A stretch of DNA of 64,000 bases from Proteromonas lacertae (lineage: Eukaryota): NCBI GenBank assembly GCA_002245135.1, contig NGBS01000300.1:62001-126000 (forward strand), written 5' to 3'. Under the pieces are notes generated by a model. It worked only from the letters and a program-made list of their open reading frames with translations, did no database searches and was not told the DNA's origin. The position numbers and the translations under genes are program-made. The first letter of the stretch is position 1. Each line of letters starts with the position of its first letter. Shown one piece after another: positions 2,524 through 60,100 of this stretch.

Positions 2524-4390
2524 ATGGCATGTGCTAAAAAGAGATATTATGTTGTATGCTTTTGTATGGCTGGATTTTTATGTGTATTCAATCCTTAAAA
2601 TAGTTTCAATTGTAGACATATTTAATGAGGACATCATTTTCTGTAACAACGATAGCAATGAGCGAAGAATATCACTGGGATGGTATAAATGCATTATGTG
2701 ATATTTAGAACACACAAAAGGTTCAATTTTATCGTCTTTCTTCTGGGGATATATTATTCTACTAGTTCCAGGTGGTATATTGTCTAGAAAATTAGGAGGA
2801 ACATATCATTTTGAGAATTGTTAATGTTCTTGTTATTTTCTTAATTATTGTACTAAATTAACAGAATATTGTACATTAATATCATCAGTACTATGTATGT
2901 TTATACCGACAATTTCAAAGAATTCTACAATGATGTATACTCAATTAATCATATTTCTTTATATAATAGAATGTTATTCAATTGTATATCAGGTTTAGTA
3001 GGAGCATTAGCTTACCCATCTATATCAGTATTAACATCTCAATGGGCACCTGTCAATGAAAGGTCAATTCTTTGTTCAATCGCAAATCTTGGATCACCAT
3101 TAGGTTTAACGTTTGGTGCATTGTTTACTGGTCAAATTGTTGATAGTTCTCTTGGTTGGAGAAGTGTATATTATATCTATGGTAGTGTAGCAATAGTTTG
3201 GTTTATTATATTCTTCACGTAATATATATAATTATTATTCTGATTTAAAAATAGAACAGTATATCCATCTCCAGATAAAGATCCTTGTTTATCACAAGAA
3301 GAAAGATTATTATTCCAGAGAGAGAAAATTCCAGAAAGAGATATAGAAATGAATGTTCCATCACCAGAGGATCATAATAAAGATAATAATAATAACCATA
3401 CAAAAGAAGATATTTCAAAAGATACAGATTCATTAATACCAAAAAAAGAAAAGAAAGAAAAAAGACAAGGGAAAAGTAGAGCAGATAATGAAAAAGAAAT
3501 AGAAGAAGATGAAAGTAATAGACCAAGTTTAACAAGAGTAAGTTATTTAGAAGTACCAACCATTGTAATTCCTAAAGAAAGTGAAAATAGCAAAAAGAAA
3601 AGAAATATACCATGGAAAGCTATTTTTACACATAAATGTGTTTATGCTATGTATATAATTATATATATATATAACTTATCTTTCTTTTGTAATTAGATTT
3701 GTTATTCATTTCACTAATAATTGGTGTTTTTATACATTAATGACTTATTTACCAACATTTGTCAAATCTAAGTTTGATATTCCTACAGGTTATGCATCTT
3801 ATTTGTCAATGTATCCATTCATGAGTTATTCAATTGTGCAATTAATTATTGGATTTATAAGTGATAAAATGATTGCTTCAGGAATTACTGTATTAAGAAC
3901 AAGAAAGATAATATCTGCAATTGGATTTATTGTTACAGCCATTTTCCTTTTAATTCCAGTATATATATATATATATTTATTTATTTATTTTCTATTATAA
4001 TTGAAATAGTGTTTTGTAAATAACCTTCAAATATGTTTGATATCTTTGATAATATCTGTAGGTGTGACTGGATTACCATCTACTTCTTATTATGCTAATA
4101 TGATTGATATTAGTCCAGATTATAGTGGAATTATTGTTTCTATTTCAAATACATTTGCAACAATTCATATCATTTTTAAATCATTTATTCATTTTATTAT
4201 TCTCTTTAATTTATATTTTTTACCTGGTATTCTATCTCCTTTAATTACAGCTGCAATAATTGGACAAAAACCAACCAATTTACAATGGGGAATAGTGTTT
4301 GGTATTGCTTCAGTGTTGTGTTTATTTGCTTCAGTATTCTATTGTATATTTGCAGATTGTAATAAACAAAAAGAATTAAATGATTATTAA
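2524..4390 (+). CDS. MFS anion:cation symporter (SLC17/sialin/PHT4-like), 9 exons including two AT-AC introns
   Basis: GT-AG introns 2584-2615, 2683-2708, 2935-2969, 3219-3254, 3651-3696 and 3959-4009; AT-AC introns 2803-2853 and 4167-4223. Motifs: KGSILSSFFWGY, WAPVNERS, GWRSVYYIYG, IPWKAIFT, DISPDYSG..SNTFATIPG. Confidence 0.9.
2803..2853 (+). other. AT-AC (U12-type) intron 1, 51 nt
   Basis: Donor ATATCATTTT, branch-like TTTTCTTAAT (2836-2845), acceptor TAC. It contains an in-frame TAA, and removal restores SRKLGG-T-KLTEYCTLISSVLCMFIP. Confidence 0.85.
4167..4223 (+). other. AT-AC (U12-type) intron 2, 57 nt
   Basis: Donor ATATCATTTT, branch-like TTCTCTTTAAT (4200-4210), acceptor TAC. Removal restores the conserved SNTFATI-PG motif. 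There is no GT in the interval. Confidence 0.85.
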
Positions 4391-4470: not shown

Positions 4471-6558
4471 TTAGCAGCAGCATTTTTTATTACAACTACT
4501 ACTTTCTTTACAACATTTGTCAGCACAACAACTACAATCTTTACAACTACAGTTATCAGCACATTTACCATCTGTACATTTGCAAACACCATCACAACCA
4601 CATTCTTTACAATTACATGAACTTGAACATTTTCCTCCTACACAACAAGAACCACGACAAACTCCTTTACAATTTCTTCTTCCACCTCTTAATAATGGAA
4701 TAATTTTATTTAAACTTTCAATATTATTCTCTAAAACCAATAAAGTGTTTTGACTTACACCAACTTTACATATATCTAATAAATTCTCAATTTCACCTCT
4801 TAATCTATTAACTCTATCCAAATGGTTCTTTTCATCCATTAATAAACATTTATTATTATTCTTACTGCCATATCCAATGAATTGTAATGGTCCTGGATTC
4901 TCATATTCATCATTAACTGCCCATCTTTCTTCATTTCTCTTATAAGCTCTGTAACTATCACCATGTAAGCTAATCTTAGATGGTTCAATAAAGCATCTAC
5001 CACTAGCATCAGCTTCCCAGTCATTCATCAACATATTGAGTGGAATACCAACTACTTTCCATTTACATACTTCTTCATTTAAGTTATAAATTGATACTAA
5101 ACATCCTGTAATTCCACTCATTATTAAACTACCAGCACCATAACCACATGAATAACCTAAATCACAATCAAAGTTACTAGGTAAGGATGATCTTTCTTTA
5201 TAACCTAAATAGTTAGTTACTGGGCTAAATGCTCCATTATATTTACCTAACTTCTTTCTATGATTTAATTCTCTTTTAACTAATTCGGCGAATAATTTTT
5301 CAGTACTAATTTGTGATAATTGAATATTACCTCTTGATTCTCTTTCCTTTAATAATTGACTTTGAATTATGGTTGGTAAACTTTCATATAATGCTCTTGA
5401 CCATGGTGTTAAATTCTTATTAATCTCATTCTCTTTCTTTCCATTATTCAATAATTCGTTTAGTTCATTAATTAAAGTCTTTAATTCGTGGATGTTTTCA
5501 ATATAACCTTCTGGAATTAATACAACACCAAAGTCTCTGTTACATTGTTCATGTCTTTTCACAACTAAATCAGCTAATTTACTAATAACTCCACCTAAAC
5601 TTTCATGGTTTCTATTAGCTTCTTCTCCTAATAATAACATATTTGGATGAGTTTCTAAAGCACATTCTAATGGAATATGACCTGATTTTCTACCCATTAA
5701 TCGAATAAAGTAATAATATTTCTTAGCTGAATTACCATCAGTGCATAAATTACCTATCAATTCACTGTATACTCTACAAGCTGTATCAAATCCTACAGTT
5801 GTTTCTACAAGTTTAGATTTCATATCTCTAGTGATAGTTACTGGTACACCAATTACTCTTGTCTTAATACCTGTTGCTACGAAGTATTCAGCAAGATGAG
5901 CTGCATCTGTGTTAGTGTAACATCCTCCGATTAAAACTAAACCATCTAAACCTAATTTTTCACATGTCTTTCCTGCTAATTCTTGTTCTTCACCATCACG
6001 GATTTTATCAGCTGCTCTACCAATCAAATCGAAACCTCCTTGATTTCTGTAAGTTGATAACATTTCGTCGGTGATTTTGACATAGCTAGCTTGGAATAAA
6101 CCAGCAGTTCCACCAATGAAACCATATAATTCGGATTTTGGATTTGAAGCTTTTAAAAAGTCATATAAACCACTGATGACATTGTGACCACCTGGAGCTT
6201 GACGTCCACAGAATAAAATACCAACTTTGAGTTGTTGACAGTCTAATTCTTTATCTGAAACTGATAAGCTGACCATTGGGTATTCACATGTATTTGGGAA
6301 GTTTTCTTTAATTAATGGACTTGGTTCTGATCCAACAATTTCGCATGGCTATAAAAAAATAAATTAATAAAAAAATTGCATTTAAAGTGAATATATAATA
6401 TTAGATACTTGTATTTTCTTTGGATTTGCTAAGACATCTGGCAATCTGGGATGATAAGCTAATCTTTCTTTTTCAAGAGAGCTCATATCATCTTTACTTC
6501 TATTGCCTGGCTTGATGACAACCTTGATACCATCTTTATTTGTGAATGTAGTTGACAT
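4471..6558 (-). CDS. PPi-dependent phosphofructokinase, alpha-like (probably non-catalytic/regulatory) subunit with C-terminal metallothionein-like Cys-rich tail
   Basis: ATG 6558, intron 6349-6408. Motifs GRQAPGGHNV, TVGFDTA and FIRLMGR are present. Catalytic motifs are altered (GGCYTNT for GGDDSNT; PVTITRD for PKTIDGD), as in plant PFP-alpha. Confidence 0.88.
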
Positions 6559-6676
6559 TTGTTACTAAAAAAAGCTTCAAAAAATCTAAATCTAAATTGA
6601 TAAAAATGATTGGCTTGTTACTCAATTTCGCATCTTCTAGACATTTCTAAATACTATCTTATCTAATTTCATAAGA
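6559..6676. promoter_or_regulatory. Probable bidirectional promoter between PFK alpha and beta genes
   Basis: Only 118 bp separate the divergent ATGs. Contains ATTTAGATTTAGATTTTTTGAAG (minus strand) and GATTGG (CCAAT-like). Confidence 0.55.
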
Positions 6677-8331
6677 ATGAGTACATTGCAATTAGCAAGA
6701 AGAACAGCAAAGCCAATATTGCCAAGTGTATTCTCTAAATCATTTGCAGTTGTTGACAACACAGAGAAGAAAGTCACAAATGATCGTATAAACTTGATTT
6801 TCTAATTTCATTAATAGCAAAAATTGATGAAATATTCACTAACACCCATGCATTACCACCAGTTATTGTAAAAGAAAGTTCTAAACCAGATGAACGTAAA
6901 AAATTAAATTTAGCTGTTGTTTTATCAGGAGGTCAAGCTCCAGGAGGTCACAATGTCATTGCTGGTATTTATGATTATTGCAAACAAAATGGAGGTAAAA
7001 TGTATGGTTTCTTGAATGGTCCACATGGTGTATACACTTGTGAATATAAAGAAATTGATGATGAATTCATGAATAAGTTCAGAAATATGGGAGGATTCGA
7101 TATGATTGGTTCTGGAAGACACAAGATTGAAACACCCGAACAATTTGAAGGTTCAGTCAATGCTGCTAAGAAATTAGATTTAGATGGTATTATTATCATT
7201 GGAGGAGATGATTCAAACACAAATGCTGCAATTTTAGCTGAAGAATTCAAAAAGCAAGGATGTAAATGTAAAGTAATTGGTTGTCCAAAGACCATTGATG
7301 GCGATTTAAAGAATGAATTTATTCCAATATCCTTTGGATTTGATACAGCCACAAAAACATTTTCAGAAGAAATTGGTAATATTTGTTCAGATGCTATTTC
7401 ATCTCAAAAATATTGGCACTTTATTAGATTAATGGGAAGATCAGCAAGTCATGTGACATTAGAATGTGCATTACAAACTCATCCAAATGAAACAATCATT
7501 GGTGAAGAAGTAGCTGAAAAGAAATCAACTTTAAAAGATATATCTACACAAATTGCCAATACAATTGTGAAGAGAAGTAAAGATAATAAAGATTATGGTG
7601 TTGTATTATTGCCAGAAGGTTTAATTGAATTTATTCCAGAAATGGGAACTTTATTACAAGCTATTAATGAAATATTAGCAACAAACACTGAAGGAAATAA
7701 TAAAGATCCTGAAGTTATTGCTAAGAAATTACCTAATAAAGAATTACATGATTTATTCATCTATTTACCATCCAATATTCAACAACAATTGTTAATGGAT
7801 AGAGATGCACATGGTAATGTTCAAGTATCTATGATTGAAACTGAACAATTAATCATAGGAACTGTCTCTAAAGAATTAGAAGAATTAAAGAAACAAGGTA
7901 AATACAATGGAACATTTACAAGTCAATGCCACTTCTTAGGATATGAAGGTAGATGTGGTTTACCATCATTGTTTGATAGTACATATTGTTATACATTAGG
8001 CTATAATGCTGGTGCTTTAGTTAATGCTGGTAAGACTGGTTTAATGAGTTATGCTAAGAATATTGATAAAGATCCTAAAGATTGGGAAGTTGGTGGTGTT
8101 CCATTAACTAATATGATGAATATTGAGAGAAGAAATGGTAAAGATAAGCCAGTTATTGCTAAAGCATTAGTTACATTGAAAGGTGCTCCATTATCATTCT
8201 TCTTGAAACACCGTGAAGAATGGGCTGTTGGCGATCATTATAGAAATCCAGGACCTATTCAATTTGAAGGTGAAAGTGCTAAAGAAGTGAATATTACTTT
8301 ACAATTAGAATGTCAAGCTCATCATTTGTAA
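6677..8331 (+). CDS. PPi-dependent phosphofructokinase, beta (catalytic) subunit
   Basis: ATG 6677, intron 6786-6817. Motifs SGGQAPGGHNV, GGDDSNT, PKTIDGD, FGFDTA, RLMGRSASH and GYEGR. Confidence 0.95.
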
Positions 8332-12999: not shown

Positions 13000-13084
13000 T
13001 ACAAAAACAGATTCTTCTTTACTTTCTTCAGAAATAGAAAAATTAGTAGAGTTTGACATTTTGGCTTGACAGAAAAAAAATATA
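13000..13084. promoter_or_regulatory. Probable bidirectional promoter between NAF1 and EBP2
   Basis: 85 bp separate the divergent ATGs of two ribosome-biogenesis genes. Confidence 0.5.
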
Positions 13085-13846
13085 ATGTCTTCAAACGAAG
13101 AATCTGAAGATGAATTCGATAAAGAAGTGGAAGCAATGAAACGTTTAAAGGAAGAAAGAAACCCTAATAAAAGAAAATCAGAAAGAATAAACAATATTGA
13201 AGGACTTGAAACATGTCTTGAAGAAATAAAAGTAAAATTACCATGGCTAGAAACATTGAGAATATCACAAAGTATTGATGAAAGTGTATCAGCTGACGAT
13301 GACTTGAATAGAGAATTAGAGTTTTATAAAGCCACCATTGCAGGAGTAACTAAAGGAAGGTCAATTTTGGAGGAAATGAAAATTCCTTATCTTAGACCAA
13401 AGGATTATTTTGCAGAGATGGTAAAAACAGATATTCATATGGATCATATAAAACAAGCATTGGAATTTGAACAACACAAAATGGACGTAGTAGAACAAAG
13501 AAAAATAGATCAAATGCAACGAAAATTTGCAAAGAAAGCAAGACAAACAAAACAAGAAAAGAAAAAACAAACAAATTATATAAAAGAATATAAAGGAAAT
13601 TCAAAGGGTTTAGAAGAAGCATTAAATAAAGAAGATAATGTCACAAAGAAAGGAAAAGGTGAATTTAGTGTGGGAAAGAAAAATAGTAGTGGTAATCCAA
13701 AACCAAATAAAAGAAGACAAATGAAGAATAAAAAATATGGTGGAACTAAAAAGAGAGGTAGTAAATGGCAAACACAAGAAAGTGCTAATAATATATCATC
13801 CAAAGAATTTAGACGTGCACAGAAAAAACCAAGATTTCATAAATAG
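13085..13846 (+). CDS. EBP2: rRNA-processing protein EBP2
   Basis: Motifs LPWLETL, DDLNRELEFY, IPYLRPKDYFAEMVKTDIHM, and KRRQMKNKKYGG..KRGSK. Confidence 0.93.
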   Translation: MSSNEESEDEFDKEVEAMKRLKEERNPNKRKSERINNIEGLETCLEEIKVKLPWLETLRISQSIDESVSADDDLNRELEFYKATIAGVTKGRSILEEMKIPYLRPKDYFAEMVKTDIHMDHIKQALEFEQHKMDVVEQRKIDQMQRKFAKKARQTKQEKKKQTNYIKEYKGNSKGLEEALNKEDNVTKKGKGEFSVGKKNSSGNPKPNKRRQMKNKKYGGTKKRGSKWQTQESANNISSKEFRRAQKKPRFHK

Positions 13847-15137: not shown

Positions 15138-18100
15138 TTAACTTCTAACTACATTTTCATCCAATTCTCTTATCATTTTTTCACTATTATAAACCTTTTT
15201 ACATATTTCTTTATATACCATTTCTCTTATCGTCTCAGATATAAATCTAAGTTTATCAGATTTAGTTACATCATTTTCATCTGTTTCATATATTATCATT
15301 CTTTCATATTCTCTCTGCAATAAGGAATATTTACTTATTCCTTTATTCATTTCCCTCTCCAGTTTATGATCAACTATATGTGATACTTCATATTCCATCT
15401 CTTTTTTATTATTTTTATCATAATTTCTTATTACACCTCCATAATATTCATAGTTATCTAAATATGATTTTATTATTTCTTTTAATTTGTCTTCACTAAT
15501 TCTTAATCCATTCGATATAGATTTATATTTTGTGAATACTTCGTAACTCTCTTTCAATTTTCCATAATACAATTTTATTATTTTTACTACTTCTTCTTTT
15601 GTAAATGGAGGTATATACATCAACAGTGGACATCTTTTACTCTGAAATGTTTTACATTTCTCATCACATGGATTAGCTAAAACTATAATCATTTTTGCAT
15701 CAGGGTAATCATCTTCACCTACAACAAACCCATCAACAATAACAATATATGGTTTTCTAAAGTTAACTTTTGGTGATTGGTCTTGTTGACTTTTGTATTC
15801 TAAATATAAATTAATCTGTCCTTTTACTTCTGCTTTAAGCTAATCCTTCAGAATATTAGCTAATACTGTTTTACCTATTTTAGCATGACCAAATATTAAA
15901 TAATTTCTTTGATATTTAAAATTAAAATTATCTTTACAAATAATATTCAACATATCATCAAAACATTTTCTCATTAAACATATTCCATAATTTCCTACAT
16001 ATACATCAAAATCTTCTTCTGTTATTGTTTTTGTTCCGCCTGTTACTATTGTTCCTCCTTCTATTGTTGTTGTTGGTATATCTGCTATTAGAATAGATTT
16101 ATATTCAATTATTTGTTGTTTGTATTCTATACCACAATACTTAAAATCTCCACATTTTATTTCACTATAATCCTATTTTATTATAAATACATAATATATA
16201 TTAATACTTTTATAGACTCTTCCATTTTCCCTCTATCCTCTTTTTTATTAATGCTTTCATTATTTAATAACACTTTTATAAAAACTCCATCAACTATTAA
16301 ATCAAAGTAATTATTTTCATCCAATATAAAATAAACAAGATTCAATGATTCTTTATGATAATATAATGATACTCCTTTTTCACAACTTAATCTGAAATTA
16401 GGATTTTCAAAAGAATTTTCTTTTTGACTTAATTCATATGCTATGATTTGTTTTAATGTATTTCTTTTCGTAGTTTCATCAAATGAAGAACCATATTTCA
16501 TTACTAAAATATCATATTCATTTTTACATTTTGGTGGATAGAATTTACAATCAATATAATTCTTAACTGAATTGGAAATATATATTAATTTTTCTTGTGG
16601 TTTTAATATTTTATATCCTAAATCATTATCTGTTTCTAGTTGTAAATCATATTTCAATATAAGATTGGATAATGGACTATCATGTAAATTATTTTTATAT
16701 TCATATTGTATTTTAAAATTATTATAACCAATAGAGCCTATCACTCCTTCGATCAACTGTATATAATAATTCCAATAATCTCTGTTTTCATAGTTTCTTT
16801 TATACAAATAATGATAATAAATTAGTCGAGGATTATTTCCATATCTTTTACATACTTTCTCAAATTCACCATCTTTATCAAAGCCAATACAGTTTACAAA
16901 CCACTCATTAATATCATAAAAAGTTAAAGAATCAAAATATAATTCTTTGCATAGAATTTCTTGCATACTGTATTTATCATAGTTATGACTATCAGGTGAA
17001 CTTATTGAAATGATTTTGTTACCACTTCCAAATTCTTCATTTAAAGTATCAACTATTATTAGCGAATCATTAATATCTTTTAATGGAATTTTAATTTTAA
17101 ATATAACACCATCCTTTAATAAATAAATTTTCTTTTGATCAGGACTTCCATTTCTCTTTCCTTTTATTACATAAACATCTTTAAAATTTGGAAATTCGAT
17201 AACATTGTATAGAAATTCGTATAGAAATGTAGTTTCTTTTGTTAGATTATCGATCTTTTCGTTTATTCTCATTATTTCTAATGATTTTTCATAAGCAGAT
17301 TTGTTTTTATTTTCTTTTCTCAATTCATTTATCCTTACAATATTATTATGTATAATACCATTCATTATTTCTTTTTCTTTCCTTATTTCTTCTTTCTTTA
17401 AATAAAACTTCAAAAAGTATAATAAAACATATATAAACGATGTTTTGCCAATACCTGGTTGACCAGTAACTACTATATTAGATTTATTTACTTCAGGTGA
17501 AAAACATTTACAAATGTTTTTAAACATTTCATAATAACATATTCTAATGTAAATTCTATTCTTTGGAAACTGGAAAACATTTTCATTTACATCATCTGAG
17601 ATTGCAAATTCTAAATATTTCACATCATCTATACTTTTAATACTCAAACCATTCACTACTTCCACAAAACTATCTGGTGAATCAAACAAGTTTGAATCAT
17701 CATGAAAATATTTCAATAATACTAATAATTCAAATATATTTTTACTCTTATCTACATATTCATGTTGTTTTCCTTCAAATATAAATGTAGAGTTAATATT
17801 TTTCTTTATATTGTCAATATCATAAGGTTTGTTGGTTTTTATTAAATATAATAGATATTCAATCATGTAATATTTATTATAATTATAAATTCCATATATT
17901 GTATTTGGTATTTCTATTCCATTTATAATTACTTTATCACCATCAACATTTACTTCATAATCCTTTAATTCATAGTTGTCGTATAATTCATAACCTAATT
18001 TTCCTTTATAATATTCTGTTAATATAACTGAACTATATTTATTACCAACACTAATATATGGATATATTGATGAAGGTAAATTAGTTGATATTAGTTCTGC

Positions 18101-19025
18101 AGTACCATTTTCTTGTTTTATATACATTCTCTTGTTGATCATATCAAATATCACTTCATATTTTCCTTCTACTTTATCACCAATATTGGCTATTGGTGCT
18201 GAAAGATTGTTTCCAATCTTCAGAGATGAACCTTCTAATAATTTGATGTATGGATATATCTCATATGATGAATATGCATTTTCACAATAGCCAAAACTAA
18301 TACCTTTACTACCAATACGTAATATTTCATAATAGAAATGATAAATTCCATCACTCATTTCTTCATTTATCATATTTTTACCTTCAAACACTTCATTACA
18401 TACAACATATTCAATTTTATCACCAACTACTTTTTTATTTCTATATAAATCATCTATTTTTATGATGAGAGTAACAACATTATTTTTGTCTTTCTCTATA
18501 TATGTAATTCGATATCTTTGTATCATAAAGGGTGGTACATACCAACAATTACCAAATTCATATTCACTATCATTTTGTCTTATTATATATGGATAAATTG
18601 GAGTTGCTAAGCCATCTAACACTTTCATTTTTATTCCATTTCCATATCTAATATACATTGTCTTTAAATTCATATCATAAATTAATTCGTATTCAGCACC
18701 TTCTTCGGCTTTAATACCAGAAATAGTCTCTCCTTCCATTATCTTTATCAAACACCTCAGCTGAATCAGTTTTTAACTTGATATAACCACAACTATCTTG
18801 TGAAGCAAAATAATAATATCCAAAACAAAAAAAGTGATTCAATTTCGTTATTTTGACTGTGAAATGATATACTCCTTCTTTCATACACAAATTAAAGTAG
18901 TAACAATTTTTGTTTTCTACATTCTTAGTTATATTATACAAGGATCTTTCATATCCTGGTGTATTAGTTAGCAAAGTTTCCTCATGTTTTCTTTTCATTT
19001 TTACAACGTCTATATATACATCCAT
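15138..19025 (-). pseudogene. Two SPRY-like repeats plus two Crinkler/RHS-type P-loop NTPase domains; contains a +1 frame break and an in-frame TAG (pseudogene or recoded)
   Basis: ORFs 18711-19025, 16181-18751 and 15138-15692 link via a +1 shift (~18735), intron 16173-16207 and a TAG at 15840-15842. Walker A motifs VTGQPGIGKT and IFGHAKIGKT; downstream YIVIVDG, YIPPFTKEE and YGGVIR. Confidence 0.65.
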
Positions 19026-21121
19026 TTTCTAAATCTGAACTGTATATATTCCAATACTTCCAAATTGTTAATAATAACGGCTTAAAATAAACTAATAGCT
19101 GAGATAAATGTAATTATAATTTGAATGAATAGCCAATCAAATCTCTTAAAATTAACCAATCAAAAGTAATTTTTATGCATTTCGCTTTTCTTGTGATATG
19201 TAATGAGATGATGGTTAATATTTTGTAGATTGGTTTATATTTACATGTTATAATTATTTTCTGTATTAAAGATACATACATTTTAAATATACATTCCTCC
19301 ACATTACACTCATTTTAGTGCTGTGAATGAGTTGAAATCATTTGTACTGCCTATTGAAATTGTTATATAATACATATACTGCAACATTCTACTAACAGCT
19401 GTATTTATTCTATATGTTTGATTTCAAATACTATTTTTCATATATATAGTTCATTTGATCTTCATTTAATCTAAATCTAGATAGCATTATTCTTTTTATT
19501 GGGGTAATATCAGTGTTTGGTGCATTAGCCTTTATTAATGATAATTCAGTCATCCAGTAACTGTACTTATTCTATTATAATCTATATAATCATCAATTTA
19601 TCAATTCTTGTATTTCTATATCACTATAAGAAAGTTTGATATGTCTGGCTTAGAAAGCATGTAAATTCTGTTCAAGGTGATAAATTAAATATTAGCTATT
19701 AATGTACAGTTGCTTTACTTGATAGACTATTTAATATAACTGTATTTTAAAAATAGAGTTCAAGCCTCTTTCAAGCCTACTTTTTCAATTTTAATATTAA
19801 GTTACAAATATTTAACATATAGTAGATTATCAGACAATACGATATACAGCCAACGTAACTATTTTGAAAAACTAAGTGTATATTTGTTATATTTAGAGGC
19901 TTAAGGTTACGTTTATAAATTTAACGTAATCTAAAGCCCTTTTATCTCTAAACGGCTTACAACAAAAATCTTTATATTTACCATCTTCAAATATCTTATT
20001 AATTTTTGGATTTAATTTGTTCTATTTATGTTTTAACCATCTTCAGTTTCATCAGCTGCAATTACTTCAACAAGTTTATATTATTTTTTATGTTACGTAG
20101 TTTATAACTAAGTAAATTAATTGATTTTATTGAGGAAGAAGGAGATAATTGTATTCAATCATAGCTGATTTGGATTGGAAAATGGATAAAATCTGTGTTT
20201 TGATCATTATCCTTTAATTTAATATAATTTTCAGAACTTTAAATTGACTTATATTTTTTAAAGATTCTTCAATACCAATATAATATTTCTTTTATCTTTC
20301 TTTAAATTAATATTTATTTTCACATATTCTTTTAAGGATTTGAGTGATGTTTTGATCTATAAATTTTTAATTGTATTTATAGTATTATTCTTTTTTAAGA
20401 ATTTACTAACTTTTAACTCTGATATGCCATTCTCCAGAATAATTGGAGAAAGTACATTATTAAATCATCTCTATCTCGATTAATATCATTTTCTTCACCA
20501 TTACCATAATTACCATATTCACCTTCACTATTATCTTCTATACTATTATATATTACTACTGTACTATAATTACAGTTAATAGGAATCTTCTGATTGTTTT
20601 CTATTACTACAATATAATTGTTACTACTTTCGTAGATTATATTAATATTGAAAAAGTCTACTATAATGTATTTTGATTAATTTATAATCCAAATCCTGTT
20701 ATTCTTACTATTGCTTTTCTGCAAATACTTTTAGACATTTCTCTAATGTCATTTATTCTTCTAGTCATTTCATGATGGGTTGATCTAGACAAAAATAAGA
20801 TGTTATTATGTATTGTTTAATAAAGTATGTCCTTCCAAGATTTTACATTTTTTACTATTATAAAATCAATTGGTTAATACATTTTAAGAGTAATTAGCCT
20901 CTCTATGAAACTAAAATCATAAATTCATCTTTACAGTATAAGTGCTTTGGTTTTTATCATTTTATCCTAGTTACACCCAAATAATTTACAAAGTATGTAT
21001 TGTGTAGTTTACAAATAGCACATGAAGGCATTATCAAAATGAATTGTACTGTAAATTTAATCACACAAAAAACAAATAATAAGTATTAGGTATAAATTTT
21101 TAAAATAGAATAATAATAATC

Positions 21122-57100: not shown

Positions 57101-60100
57101 TTGTTATTATTACCAACTATTTGATTGAATTGTATTTCATTCTTTCCTATTGTCTGTAATTGTGATACTTTCAAATTTCCAATTATTTCTTGTAGTTTCA
57201 ATACACTAATATCACTTAAATTAACATATTCAGAATAATCATAATCAGTTACAAATCTAATTATTTCTTTATCACATTTTACTTGTTGTATTTCATAATT
57301 ATAACCACTTATTCCTTTACTCAATGCAACTCCTTCAGCATATGAATATATAGGACTTGTAGATTGTTCTAGAATAAATGTCAACTTAGTATTTTCAGAT
57401 TCTTTGCTTTCTCTTTGATTATCAAATGATGTAATAGTAAATGAGTAATGATATTTGTAATTATTCAATATAATATCATTCAAATTCATAGTAATCTGTT
57501 GAGATTCTATATTTGGATTGTATATCACTTTATTTAACTCAATTATTGTATCATAATTGTTAATTACTTTAACATATGAAGTTGATGGTAATAAACTGCC
57601 ATAATGACTAATAAAACCATTATTACATTCATCTCTAGATAATTTCACTGAATATTCAACAGAATTGCTATTTGTACTATTCAATAGAGTAACTTTGGCA
57701 TTGTTTATCACAGGTATTTCATTGATTTTTTCTTCTAATTCATAAGCTGTAACATTGTATGGTATTTTGTCAGTATAATAATCATGATATTGTAATACAA
57801 AATAACCAGATTCAGCATTATTGATAATAACCATTAACTCACATCCATATCCATTAATTACATCAGTCTTATATAAGTATAATTTATAACCTAATATTGG
57901 ATTAATAATTGATATATGTTTAGGGTTATTCCATGTAATTATTACACTTGTATTAGTGATTAAATTCCATTTAATATTAGTTGGTGTTTCTGGTAATGGT
58001 GTTGTATATAATTTTGTTGATTTACTGTTACTAATACTATTTCCTATTTCATTCTTAGCTGATACCGAAATGATATATTTCTCATTACATTGTAAATCAG
58101 TTAGATTGTAATAATAATCAATTTTCTCTATATCATTTTCATTAATATCTATTGATACTGTTTGAATGTCAGTTTTATCAGTAAAATAGTGTAATTCATA
58201 ACTGTTAATCATTTTACCACCACTATTTTGAGGTAATTTCCATCTTAATTCTACACTACAACTGTCATCATCTTCTTCTTCTTCAACATCATTATTATGA
58301 TTATTTGTATTAATTCTTCTTACAATTGGTTGAGATGGTGGTAATATTGGTTCAGTTTGTATATTCATATTATTTACATGAATTAAATCACTTTTCATTC
58401 CTCTCTCTTTATTATCATAAATACACTGAATCATAAAATCATAACTACTATCCATTTCAAATATATTATCAATAACGACTAGATTTTTGAAATTCTCTTT
58501 TTCTTCTTTATTACTTCTTGTATCATATAATAATATTTCCTCATTATTATTTCTAATTCCGTAGATTAAATAACCTGTAATATTTCTATTACCTCTACTT
58601 AATGATTCTTCCCATACAAATGAAATACTATATGAAGTATAATTCACTAAATATAAAGTCGGTTTATATAACTCATTATCAATAACATTTGATGATTTTA
58701 CACTAATTGGTTCATTCCAGATAGCAGGTAAACTTCTAACTATTTTATCATTAAACTTACCAACTAAGTTTACCTTCCAATAATATTCATTATTTGGTTG
58801 TAAATAGACTGTTTTATTACCTCGATAACTTGTATTATATTTAGTAGAAATATAATCTTCATTTTCATTAGTAGTATTTATAATCAATTTAACATTATCA
58901 TTATCACTATCAGTTACTATTTCTAATACCTTTGCATCTTTATCATATACATTTATATACTCTACAATCCAATAATAACCTGTATTAGTATAATATCTCT
59001 GTATATTCAACTCAGGTAAATCATTAAACTGTCTATGTAATAAGTAATTCAAATCATTAGCTTTAGTGTCATAAGCAATTGGTATTTCTCCAATTGTATT
59101 ATTATATTTCAATTGGAAAGTTGGATAGTTCAAATTGTAGATATAATTATTCATTAATAAACTCTCATTCTTATCAACATAATATAAGTTAAAATCATCA
59201 ATACTGAAATCCATATAATTGGGTATTCCATTAGTTGTATAGTTTAATATTGTTATATTATATTCATATATAGAATATGGAGTTAATCTATCTGTTACTT
59301 CAACTACAGATATGCAATCTAATTCTTCTAATATTGACTTTAATTCATTTCCTGTTATATTGTATTTGATATTACCAGTTGTACATGTATTAATAGTGAT
59401 TCTATAAGATCCATCCATTGATAATCCTTTCTTAGAGTTACAATACTCACTATCAGTCTCACAATAATAGAAATGTAATAAAGTACCAGTTAAACCACTA
59501 GTATTCACCTCTATTACAGGTAAACTACCATTTACAGATAGATATTCAATAATTAAATGTCCAGGTATTAATATATTGTCTTTATATATATTCTTGTTAC
59601 ATTAACACCAGCAATTGTTGGTAATGAATTTAATGCATTTGCAATTGCAGATTCATCATTAATACTAACTGGTACAGTTGTATCTCCTCTAAATGTAAAT
59701 ATAACTGTTCCATCAACTGGTTTAACTCCTCTTACAACAACAGAATATTCTATTCTTCCATTCAAATTACTAGTGTCAAATGTAATATACTTATTCATAT
59801 TATCTTGATAATTATTGAATGTTAAATAGATAGGTAAATCTAATGTATCTTTACAAATTGGTTTAATATCAAATTCACCACTTCTTTCAACAGTAATTGA
59901 ACTATCAATACCACTCATTATTCCTTTAAACTCATTGAATGATATATTATAATCAACAGAAATATTATCATTAATCATAAATGAACCACTTGTAGCAATA
60001 CAATAAATCATTTCAACTTGTTTCACTTCATCTAATGGAGAATCAATAATGAAATCTTGAACTTCATGAATATCTGAATTAGCTATTGTTTTAATATTGA

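What the first reader, a model, noticed from the sequence alone, without database searches (positions are those of the whole stretch)
2803..4223. Two AT-AC minor-spliceosome-type introns in one transporter gene, sharing a non-canonical donor ATATCATTTT
Seen: both introns (2803-2853 and 4167-4223) begin with the identical 10-mer ATATCATTTT and end in TAC. Both carry a U12-like branch sequence (TTTTCTTAAT, TTCTCTTTAAT) with the putative branch A 9-15 nt from the end. At 51 and 57 nt they are longer than most neighbouring GT-AG introns. Intron 1 has an in-frame stop, and the nearest GT-AG alternative creates a TAA. Intron 2 interrupts the SNTFATIPG motif. Established: the U12 consensus is RTATCCTTT with branch TTCCTTAAC, and such introns are normally very rare. 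Inference: a minor spliceosome with a shifted donor consensus (C+6 to A) operates here, possibly with compensatory U11/U6atac changes. Two such introns among about 30 in the window hints at an expanded or recently gained minor-intron class in a compact genome.
Basis: partly seen in the sequence, partly recalled or inferred. Interest (0 to 1): 0.82.

Follow-up and report, generated by a model that had tools for sequence, protein, structure and literature searches.

The report
Minor introns with relaxed donor signal
Two interruptions with rare AT-AC ends in a transporter gene of a probably Blastocystis-related protist are likely removed by the "minor" splicing machine, and they lack a letter that is almost fixed in other species, as does the same site in related genes, which suggests this lineage reads the minor-intron start signal more loosely.

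Summary
Observation confirmed. Removing 2803-2853 and 4167-4223 gives a 510-residue SLC17 transporter that aligns without gaps across both junctions. Both introns have C at +5 and a U12-like branch; of 28 predicted GT-AG neighbours, 1 has the C and 0 the branch. The second has no GT-AG alternative.

Read-through proteins of relatives show the same insertion at the second site in five further paralog or ortholog clusters. Four of them read H-I-F, which means T at +6. So 0 of 6 readable donors carry C+6 (2 A, 4 T), against 336 of 339 in Blastocystis ST1.

The donor has lost C+6; it has not been shown to be fixed as A. The second site looks old in this lineage, and ST1 already has about 1% minor introns, so "expanded or recently gained" is unsupported. 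No RNA, snRNA or whole genome was available, so U12 splicing is inferred, and the organism's placement is uncertain. The scan has noted off-consensus AT-AC donors on other DNA, not this one.

The parts
2524..4390 (+). SLC17 (VGLUT/sialin-like) MFS transporter gene, 9 predicted exons, 510 aa
   Evidence: Spliced model has one stop and aligns to P0121-P0123 at 28-39%; MFS_1; VGLUT2/sialin structures E 4e-9 to 1e-7
2803..2853 (+). AT-AC intron 1, 51 nt, phase 2, in-frame stop at 2822-2824
2803..2812 (+). donor ATATCATTTT (A at +6)
2838..2845 (+). U12-like branch motif TTCTTAAT, predicted branch A 9 nt from the end
4167..4223 (+). AT-AC intron 2, 57 nt, phase 1, no stop; same site occupied in five further clusters of relatives
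4167..4176 (+). donor ATATCATTTT (A at +6; T at +6 in four relative clusters)
4203..4210 (+). U12-like branch motif TCTTTAAT, predicted branch A 14 nt from the end
2584..2615 (+). GT-AG intron, 32 nt
2683..2708 (+). GT-AG intron, 26 nt
2935..2969 (+). GT-AG intron, 35 nt
3219..3254 (+). GT-AG intron, 36 nt
3651..3696 (+). GT-AG intron, 46 nt
3959..4009 (+). GT-AG intron, 51 nt

Best explanation
Both stretches are likely real introns, likely removed by a minor (U12-type) spliceosome that in this lineage probably no longer requires C at donor position +6 and accepts A or T there. Shown: AT-AC ends, C+5, a T run from +7, a branch-like motif 9-14 nt from the end, and a gap-free protein after removal. 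Inferred from translated read-through: the second site is shared by relatives, with T at +6. Inferred from established minor-spliceosome biology: U12 would pair with the branch (both motifs differ from TCCTTAAC only by two C-to-T changes, which G-U pairs would tolerate), U11 with U11-48K would read +1 to +5 and the T run, and +6 would be unpaired or loosely read and drift with the 74% AT genome. ST1 keeps C+6 almost without exception, so this loosening would need some change in U11 or its proteins in this lineage.
For: Gap-free alignment at both junctions. Site 2 ranks 3 of 2663 open excisions, behind two shifted 57-nt cuts with unusable ends, and has 0 GT-AG alternatives. Site 1 is within 0.5 bit of the best of 150 variants against a 30-sequence profile. 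C+5 and branch motif set both apart from 28 GT-AG neighbours. P0126 (76% identical) has a 22-codon insert at site 2. P0135 has a 56-nt insert followed by the next exon in a shifted frame, ending A[CT]. P0155 and P0174 start the same way. P0134 shows the exon in another frame, then I-S-F, which fits ATHTCNTTY and gives C+5 if the serine codon is TCN. A T run like H-I-F-[FL] has probability 0.036 per intron under the window's GT-AG donor frequencies. Blastocystis ST1 has all four minor snRNAs and seven proteins (PMC5608401), and its minor introns are longer than its 30-nt major ones (rows; PMC10639083), as here.
Against: The donor fails the published rule RTATCCTT with at most one C-to-T (PMC2846911). 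The genome's major donor is GTAT (27 of 28), so ATAT differs from it only at +1. In the H-I-F proteins +5 is ambiguous (A, C or T) and the DNA was not seen. The four T readings are one homologous site, not independent introns. The window's PFK falls outside the ST1-plus-tortoise Blastocystis clade, unresolved, so the ST1 machinery cannot simply be assumed. With two references only, site 1 ranked 35 of 1642. The two introns are weakly alike beyond +10 (48 of 2000 shuffles reach the score), so they may not be fully independent.
Confidence: 0.66

Rival explanations
1. One reading: in this species the minor donor consensus has shifted to a fixed A at +6, with a matching G-to-U change in U11 (and perhaps U6atac).
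For: Both donors in the window have A, while the 76%-identical ortholog has T at site 2, so a T-to-A change on this branch is possible. Physarum shows branch-site/U12 coevolution (10.1101/2020.10.12.336362).
Against: Two of two A has probability 0.27 under free A/T. Four relative clusters have T. No snRNA was seen.
Confidence: 0.15
2. U2-type AT-AC introns: the major spliceosome, whose donor here is GTAT, also accepts ATAT, and the U12-like letters are relics of a lost minor system.
For: Major donors are GTAT in 27 of 28 and have A at +6 in 12 of 28. Major spliceosomes can splice AT-AC introns (PMC11347168 passage). C+6 is gone in all 6 readable donors.
Against: C+5, the T run and the branch motif are kept in both introns and are rare or absent in 28 neighbours. 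The T run is kept across paralogs more than 1.2 substitutions per site apart.
Confidence: 0.12
3. The introns are not spliced as drawn: intron 2 is retained as a 19-residue loop, intron 1 uses GT 2820-AG 2888, or the +6 letter is an assembly error.
For: Intron 2 is in frame here and in P0126 (57 and 66 nt). An open GT-AG alternative exists for intron 1. The window shows assembly-like frameshifts elsewhere.
Against: The P0135 insert is 56 nt and shifts the frame; those of P0155 and P0174 run into stops. Retention costs 17-22 bits and the GT-AG variant 15 bits. ATATCCTTT is read in frame in the PFK gene at 7327, so the assembly can carry the canonical string.
Confidence: 0.05

Closest known systems
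U12-type introns of Blastocystis sp. ST1 (PMC5608401; PMC10639083)
   Same: AT start, short length yet longer than the major introns, branch close to the 3' end, several in one gene (OAO18147 has three in the rows seen).
   Different: ST1 donors are ATATCC in 336 of 339 ATATC-starting rows, 3 ATATCT, 0 ATATCA, and are loose at +7/+8 (183 of 336 ATATCCTT). Here +6 is A or T and the T run from +7 is kept.
Canonical U12-type AT-AC introns, rule RTATCCTT with one C-to-T allowed (PMC2846911)
   Same: AT-AC ends, ATATC start, TT at +7/+8, CTTAA-type branch.
   Different: A at +6 lies outside the rule; the +6 T inferred in relatives lies inside it if +5 is C.
Transformed minor system of Physarum polycephalum (10.1101/2020.10.12.336362)
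   Same: Lineage-specific drift of minor signals, a +6T class, non-canonical ends such as AT-AT.
   Different: There the branch site and U12 coevolved and there are over 20,000 introns; here the change is in the donor, no snRNA is in hand and no expansion is shown.
U6atac CC variant of oomycetes, Acanthamoeba, Physarum and cnidarians (PMC2396436)
   Same: Shows that U6atac pairing to the canonical donor is not universal, including in stramenopiles.
   Different: Those species keep C+6 in the introns compared; the U6atac of this organism is unknown.

Membership tests
U12-type (minor) spliceosomal intron | AT-AC (or GT-AG) termini at a true intron position | tested here: met
   by protein alignment, no RNA
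U12-type (minor) spliceosomal intron | Donor RTATCCTT, at most one C-to-T | tested here: not met
   A at +6 in both; rule from PMC2846911. Filed as a variant that works like U12, not as a canonical member.
U12-type (minor) spliceosomal intron | TCCTTAAC-like branch close to the 3' end | tested here: met
   Two C-to-T differences each, A at 9 and 14 nt; 0 of 28 GT-AG introns have the motif
U12-type (minor) spliceosomal intron | No polypyrimidine tract | tested here: inconclusive
   Introns are 80-89% AT; intron 2 ends in a T run
U12-type (minor) spliceosomal intron | U11, U12, U4atac, U6atac in the genome and complementary to the signals | not testable with these tools
   No genome held; no Rfam match in the window
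U12-type (minor) spliceosomal intron | Minor-specific proteins (RNPC3, SNRNP25/35/48, ZCRB1) | not testable with these tools
   No genome held
U12-type (minor) spliceosomal intron | Excision seen in RNA and dependent on minor snRNAs | not testable with these tools
   No run was listed
U12-type (minor) spliceosomal intron | Old, conserved position | tested here: inconclusive
   Site 2 is in 6 of 9 rows and all four branches of the lineage clade; site 1 has no comparator; no cross-kingdom intron map was available
U2-type AT-AC intron | Donor fits the genome's major consensus apart from +1, and no U12 branch | tested here: not met
   +2 to +4 fit, but C+5 is in 1 of 28 major donors and both introns have the U12-like branch
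SLC17 / anion:cation symporter transporters (host gene) | MFS_1 domain with similarity to VGLUT and sialin | tested here: met

The most novel reading that the evidence does not exclude
This lineage has re-coded the minor 5' splice site genome-wide to ATATC(T/A)TTT, and its U11 5' end (with or without U6atac) has changed to match, from pairing C in Blastocystis ST1 to T in relatives and A in this species. That would be donor/snRNA coevolution, the counterpart of the branch/U12 coevolution in Physarum, in a class of introns that consensus-based classifiers would miss.
Probability: 0.3. Interest if true: 0.75.

Novelty: new variant of a known kind. Interest (0 to 1): 0.5.

Why it matters
The minor donor is among the most conserved signals in splicing, and C+6 is near invariant in the closest well-annotated comparator. 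A lineage that has dropped it gives a natural test of which snRNA, if any, must pair at +6, a question left open by the U6atac CC variant (PMC2396436) and by the few pairing bases free in U11 (10.1101/2023.12.22.573053). It also matters for annotation: site 2 is in frame, so gene callers read through it, and minor introns here could be undercounted. The presence of minor introns in this group is itself already known.

Tried and rejected
No whole genome is held. No RNA holder or other run was listed; this is no evidence either way. Rfam found 0 matches in the window at gathering and at E 1.

Locus scans: the transporter exon gave 469 pattern matches and 0 relatives in metagenome contigs. A PFK segment gave 11 bacterial loci in genome contigs and 80 of 160 loci in metagenome contigs, none above 68% identity and none with the transporter or other window genes nearby. 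Twelve donor-like hits inspected in those loci did not look like introns. Word-based protein searches gave 0 and 3 hits. Exact look-up of 6 window ORFs found none. The Atlas only confirmed MFS. Among the SLC17 proteins fetched, none of 31 motif matches showed read-through at site 1. One search had two PFK rows in the profile by mistake and was replaced. In one search, P0126 and P0134 fell out by length or motif; both are.

Rejected: chance 9-mer (place and branch argue against it); recent gain at site 2; expansion; naming the organism as Blastocystis proper. PFK trees put it outside the sampled clade, and a neighbouring row looked to me like an apicomplexan fused PFK (recalled), so PFK is a weak marker.

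Print searches: 'U12-type'+'ATATCA'+'splice site' 0 papers; 'Proteromonas'+'U12'+'introns' 0. 'U12-type'+'ATATCTTT' also gave 0 although that variant is published, so literal searches are weak evidence of absence.

Full report
The observation. Both stretches are in the sequence as described. They lie in a plus-strand gene from 2524 to 4390. Removing six GT-AG introns and the two AT-AC stretches gives a 510-residue protein with one stop, 28-39% identical in its segments to insect SLC17 transporters and free of gaps at both AT-AC junctions. One exon matches VGLUT2 and sialin structures. The motif RTATCMTTT is not enriched in the window (18 against 16.2 expected); its position is what counts. Of 11 donor-like hits with a branch motif and an AC/AG end, only these 2 fall at frame breaks on a coding strand.

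Are the junctions right? For site 2, of 2663 open excisions the AT-AC cut ranks third, behind two shifted 57-nt cuts with unusable ends, and no GT-AG cut exists. Site 1 is less sharp. It ranked 35 of 1642 with two references. Against a profile of 30 homologs it scored 452.3 bits, 0.5 below the best of 150 variants (an AT-AT cut with no donor motif), while the best open GT-AG cut, 2820-2888, scored 436.9.

Major or minor type? Because the major donor is GTAT, ATAT differs from it only at +1, so U2-type splicing had to be weighed. C+5 occurs in 2 of 2 against 1 of 28, and a T[CT][CT]TTAA[CT] branch motif in 2 of 2 against 0 of 28. Both branch motifs differ from TCCTTAAC (consensus as in PMC2846911) by two C-to-T changes only. 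This favours the minor type. It is inference, since no snRNA or RNA was available.

Relatives. A search of 1.84 billion representatives with the frame across site 2 gave 193 hits, 150 listed. The best, P0126 (76%), reads through a 22-codon insert at the same place. With cluster members, 11 records in four clusters (P0126, P0135, P0155, P0174) read H-I-F where homologs have P (94 motif matches). H-I-F means C|AT ATH TTY, so +6 is T. The window reads H-I-I (A), and the canonical donor would read H-I-L. In P0135 the next exon reappears in a shifted frame after 56 nt ending A[CT], so that insert cannot be protein. P0134 shows the upstream exon in another frame, then I-S-F, compatible with ATATCNTT; its +6 is unreadable and its end is probably AT. 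Thus 0 of 6 readable donors have C+6. Caveats: these are back-translations, +5 is ambiguous in the H-I-F rows, four of the six are one homologous site with the window's second intron, and the records are not linked to species.

Age. The window gene and eight relatives form one clade (100/99). Six rows carry the insert and three do not, and the insert is in all four branches, three of which also hold a row without it (partial sequences, 17 rows). Two of the three without it end in what looks like read-through of a GT intron, so they seem genomic; P0127 could come from a transcript. One old gain with losses is the simpler reading. Site 1 has no comparator.

The organism. GC is 25.7% and introns centre on 30-35 nt. 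The top named PFK hit is Blastocystis ST1 (58%), close to plant values of about 55%. The best metagenome matches of a 60-residue segment (65-68%) group with Blastocystis where they were placed in the tree. The window's PFK itself lies outside the ST1-plus-tortoise clade, unresolved. I put about 0.7 on a deep Blastocystis lineage or near relative. Tortoise isolates have 21-23% GC and longer introns (PMC10690189, passages and Table 1).

What is known. ST1 has 346 minor introns in 319 genes and the full minor machinery (PMC5608401: section 8, passages, S1 Table). In its S11 Data, 340 rows start ATAT: 336 ATATCC, 3 ATATCT, 1 ATATG, 0 ATATCA. That file is cut at 4 million characters, the ST7 sheet is incomplete, and every such row I saw was ST1. 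PMC10639083 (passages) finds 253 there, short and mostly AT-AC. PMC2846911 (passages) allows C-to-T at +5 or +6 only. PMC2396436 (passages) describes the U6atac CC variant in oomycetes that pairs poorly with the canonical donor. The Physarum preprint (passages; supplements not seen) reports a +6T class and branch/U12 coevolution. The U11 structure preprint (passages; supplements not seen) finds only four U11 bases free to pair. PMC11347168 and PMC8329584 were read as passages. That U11 G residues face C+5 and C+6 is recalled, not from a call. Searches found no paper with this donor, but such searches are insensitive.

Abundance. Two of 30 is 6.7%, interval 0.8-22%; at the ST1 rate the chance of two or more is 0.035, before allowing that the window was picked for them. 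Both are in one gene, as happens in ST1. Expansion is not shown.

Verdict. These are likely minor-type introns in a group where such introns are known, with a real departure at +6 that relatives share as loss of C rather than gain of A. New variant of a known kind; interest 0.5.

Noticed in passing
window 21050-62360, minus strand: Giant fibronectin-III/PA14/filamin gene, over 13,000 codons if it is one gene. About nine frame breaks lack ordinary intron signals (near 59600, 56250, 51680, 40670, 33660, 33340, 27320, 27200, 26270), some in A runs; likely assembly indels.
   Followed up: partly
window 4471-6559 (-) and 6678-8331 (+): Head-to-head pair of PPi-dependent PFK genes; the minus-strand one is divergent and ends in a long cysteine-rich tail.
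   Followed up: partly
window 13057-13087: Predicted start codons of the divergent Naf1/Gar1-like and Ebp2 genes are only 25 nt apart, so their transcripts' 5' ends would overlap.
   Followed up: no
window 6408-6349, minus strand: A 60-nt GT-AG intron with donor GTATCT, the only one of 28 with C+5; it has no U12-like branch motif.
   Followed up: partly
protein P0134: Read-through suggests a 40-nt intron at site 2 that probably ends in AT (AT-AT type), while its sister P0127 has no insert.
   Followed up: partly
window 15138-18960 (-) and about 20000-20750 (-): Long low-similarity ORFs, one with a P-loop-like motif (weak VapE-like hit), next to a stretch that looks like a decayed gene.
   Followed up: no
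window, 28 GT-AG introns: The major donor is unusually narrow at +3/+4 (GTAT in 27 of 28) and has G at +5 in only 1 of 28.
   Followed up: partly
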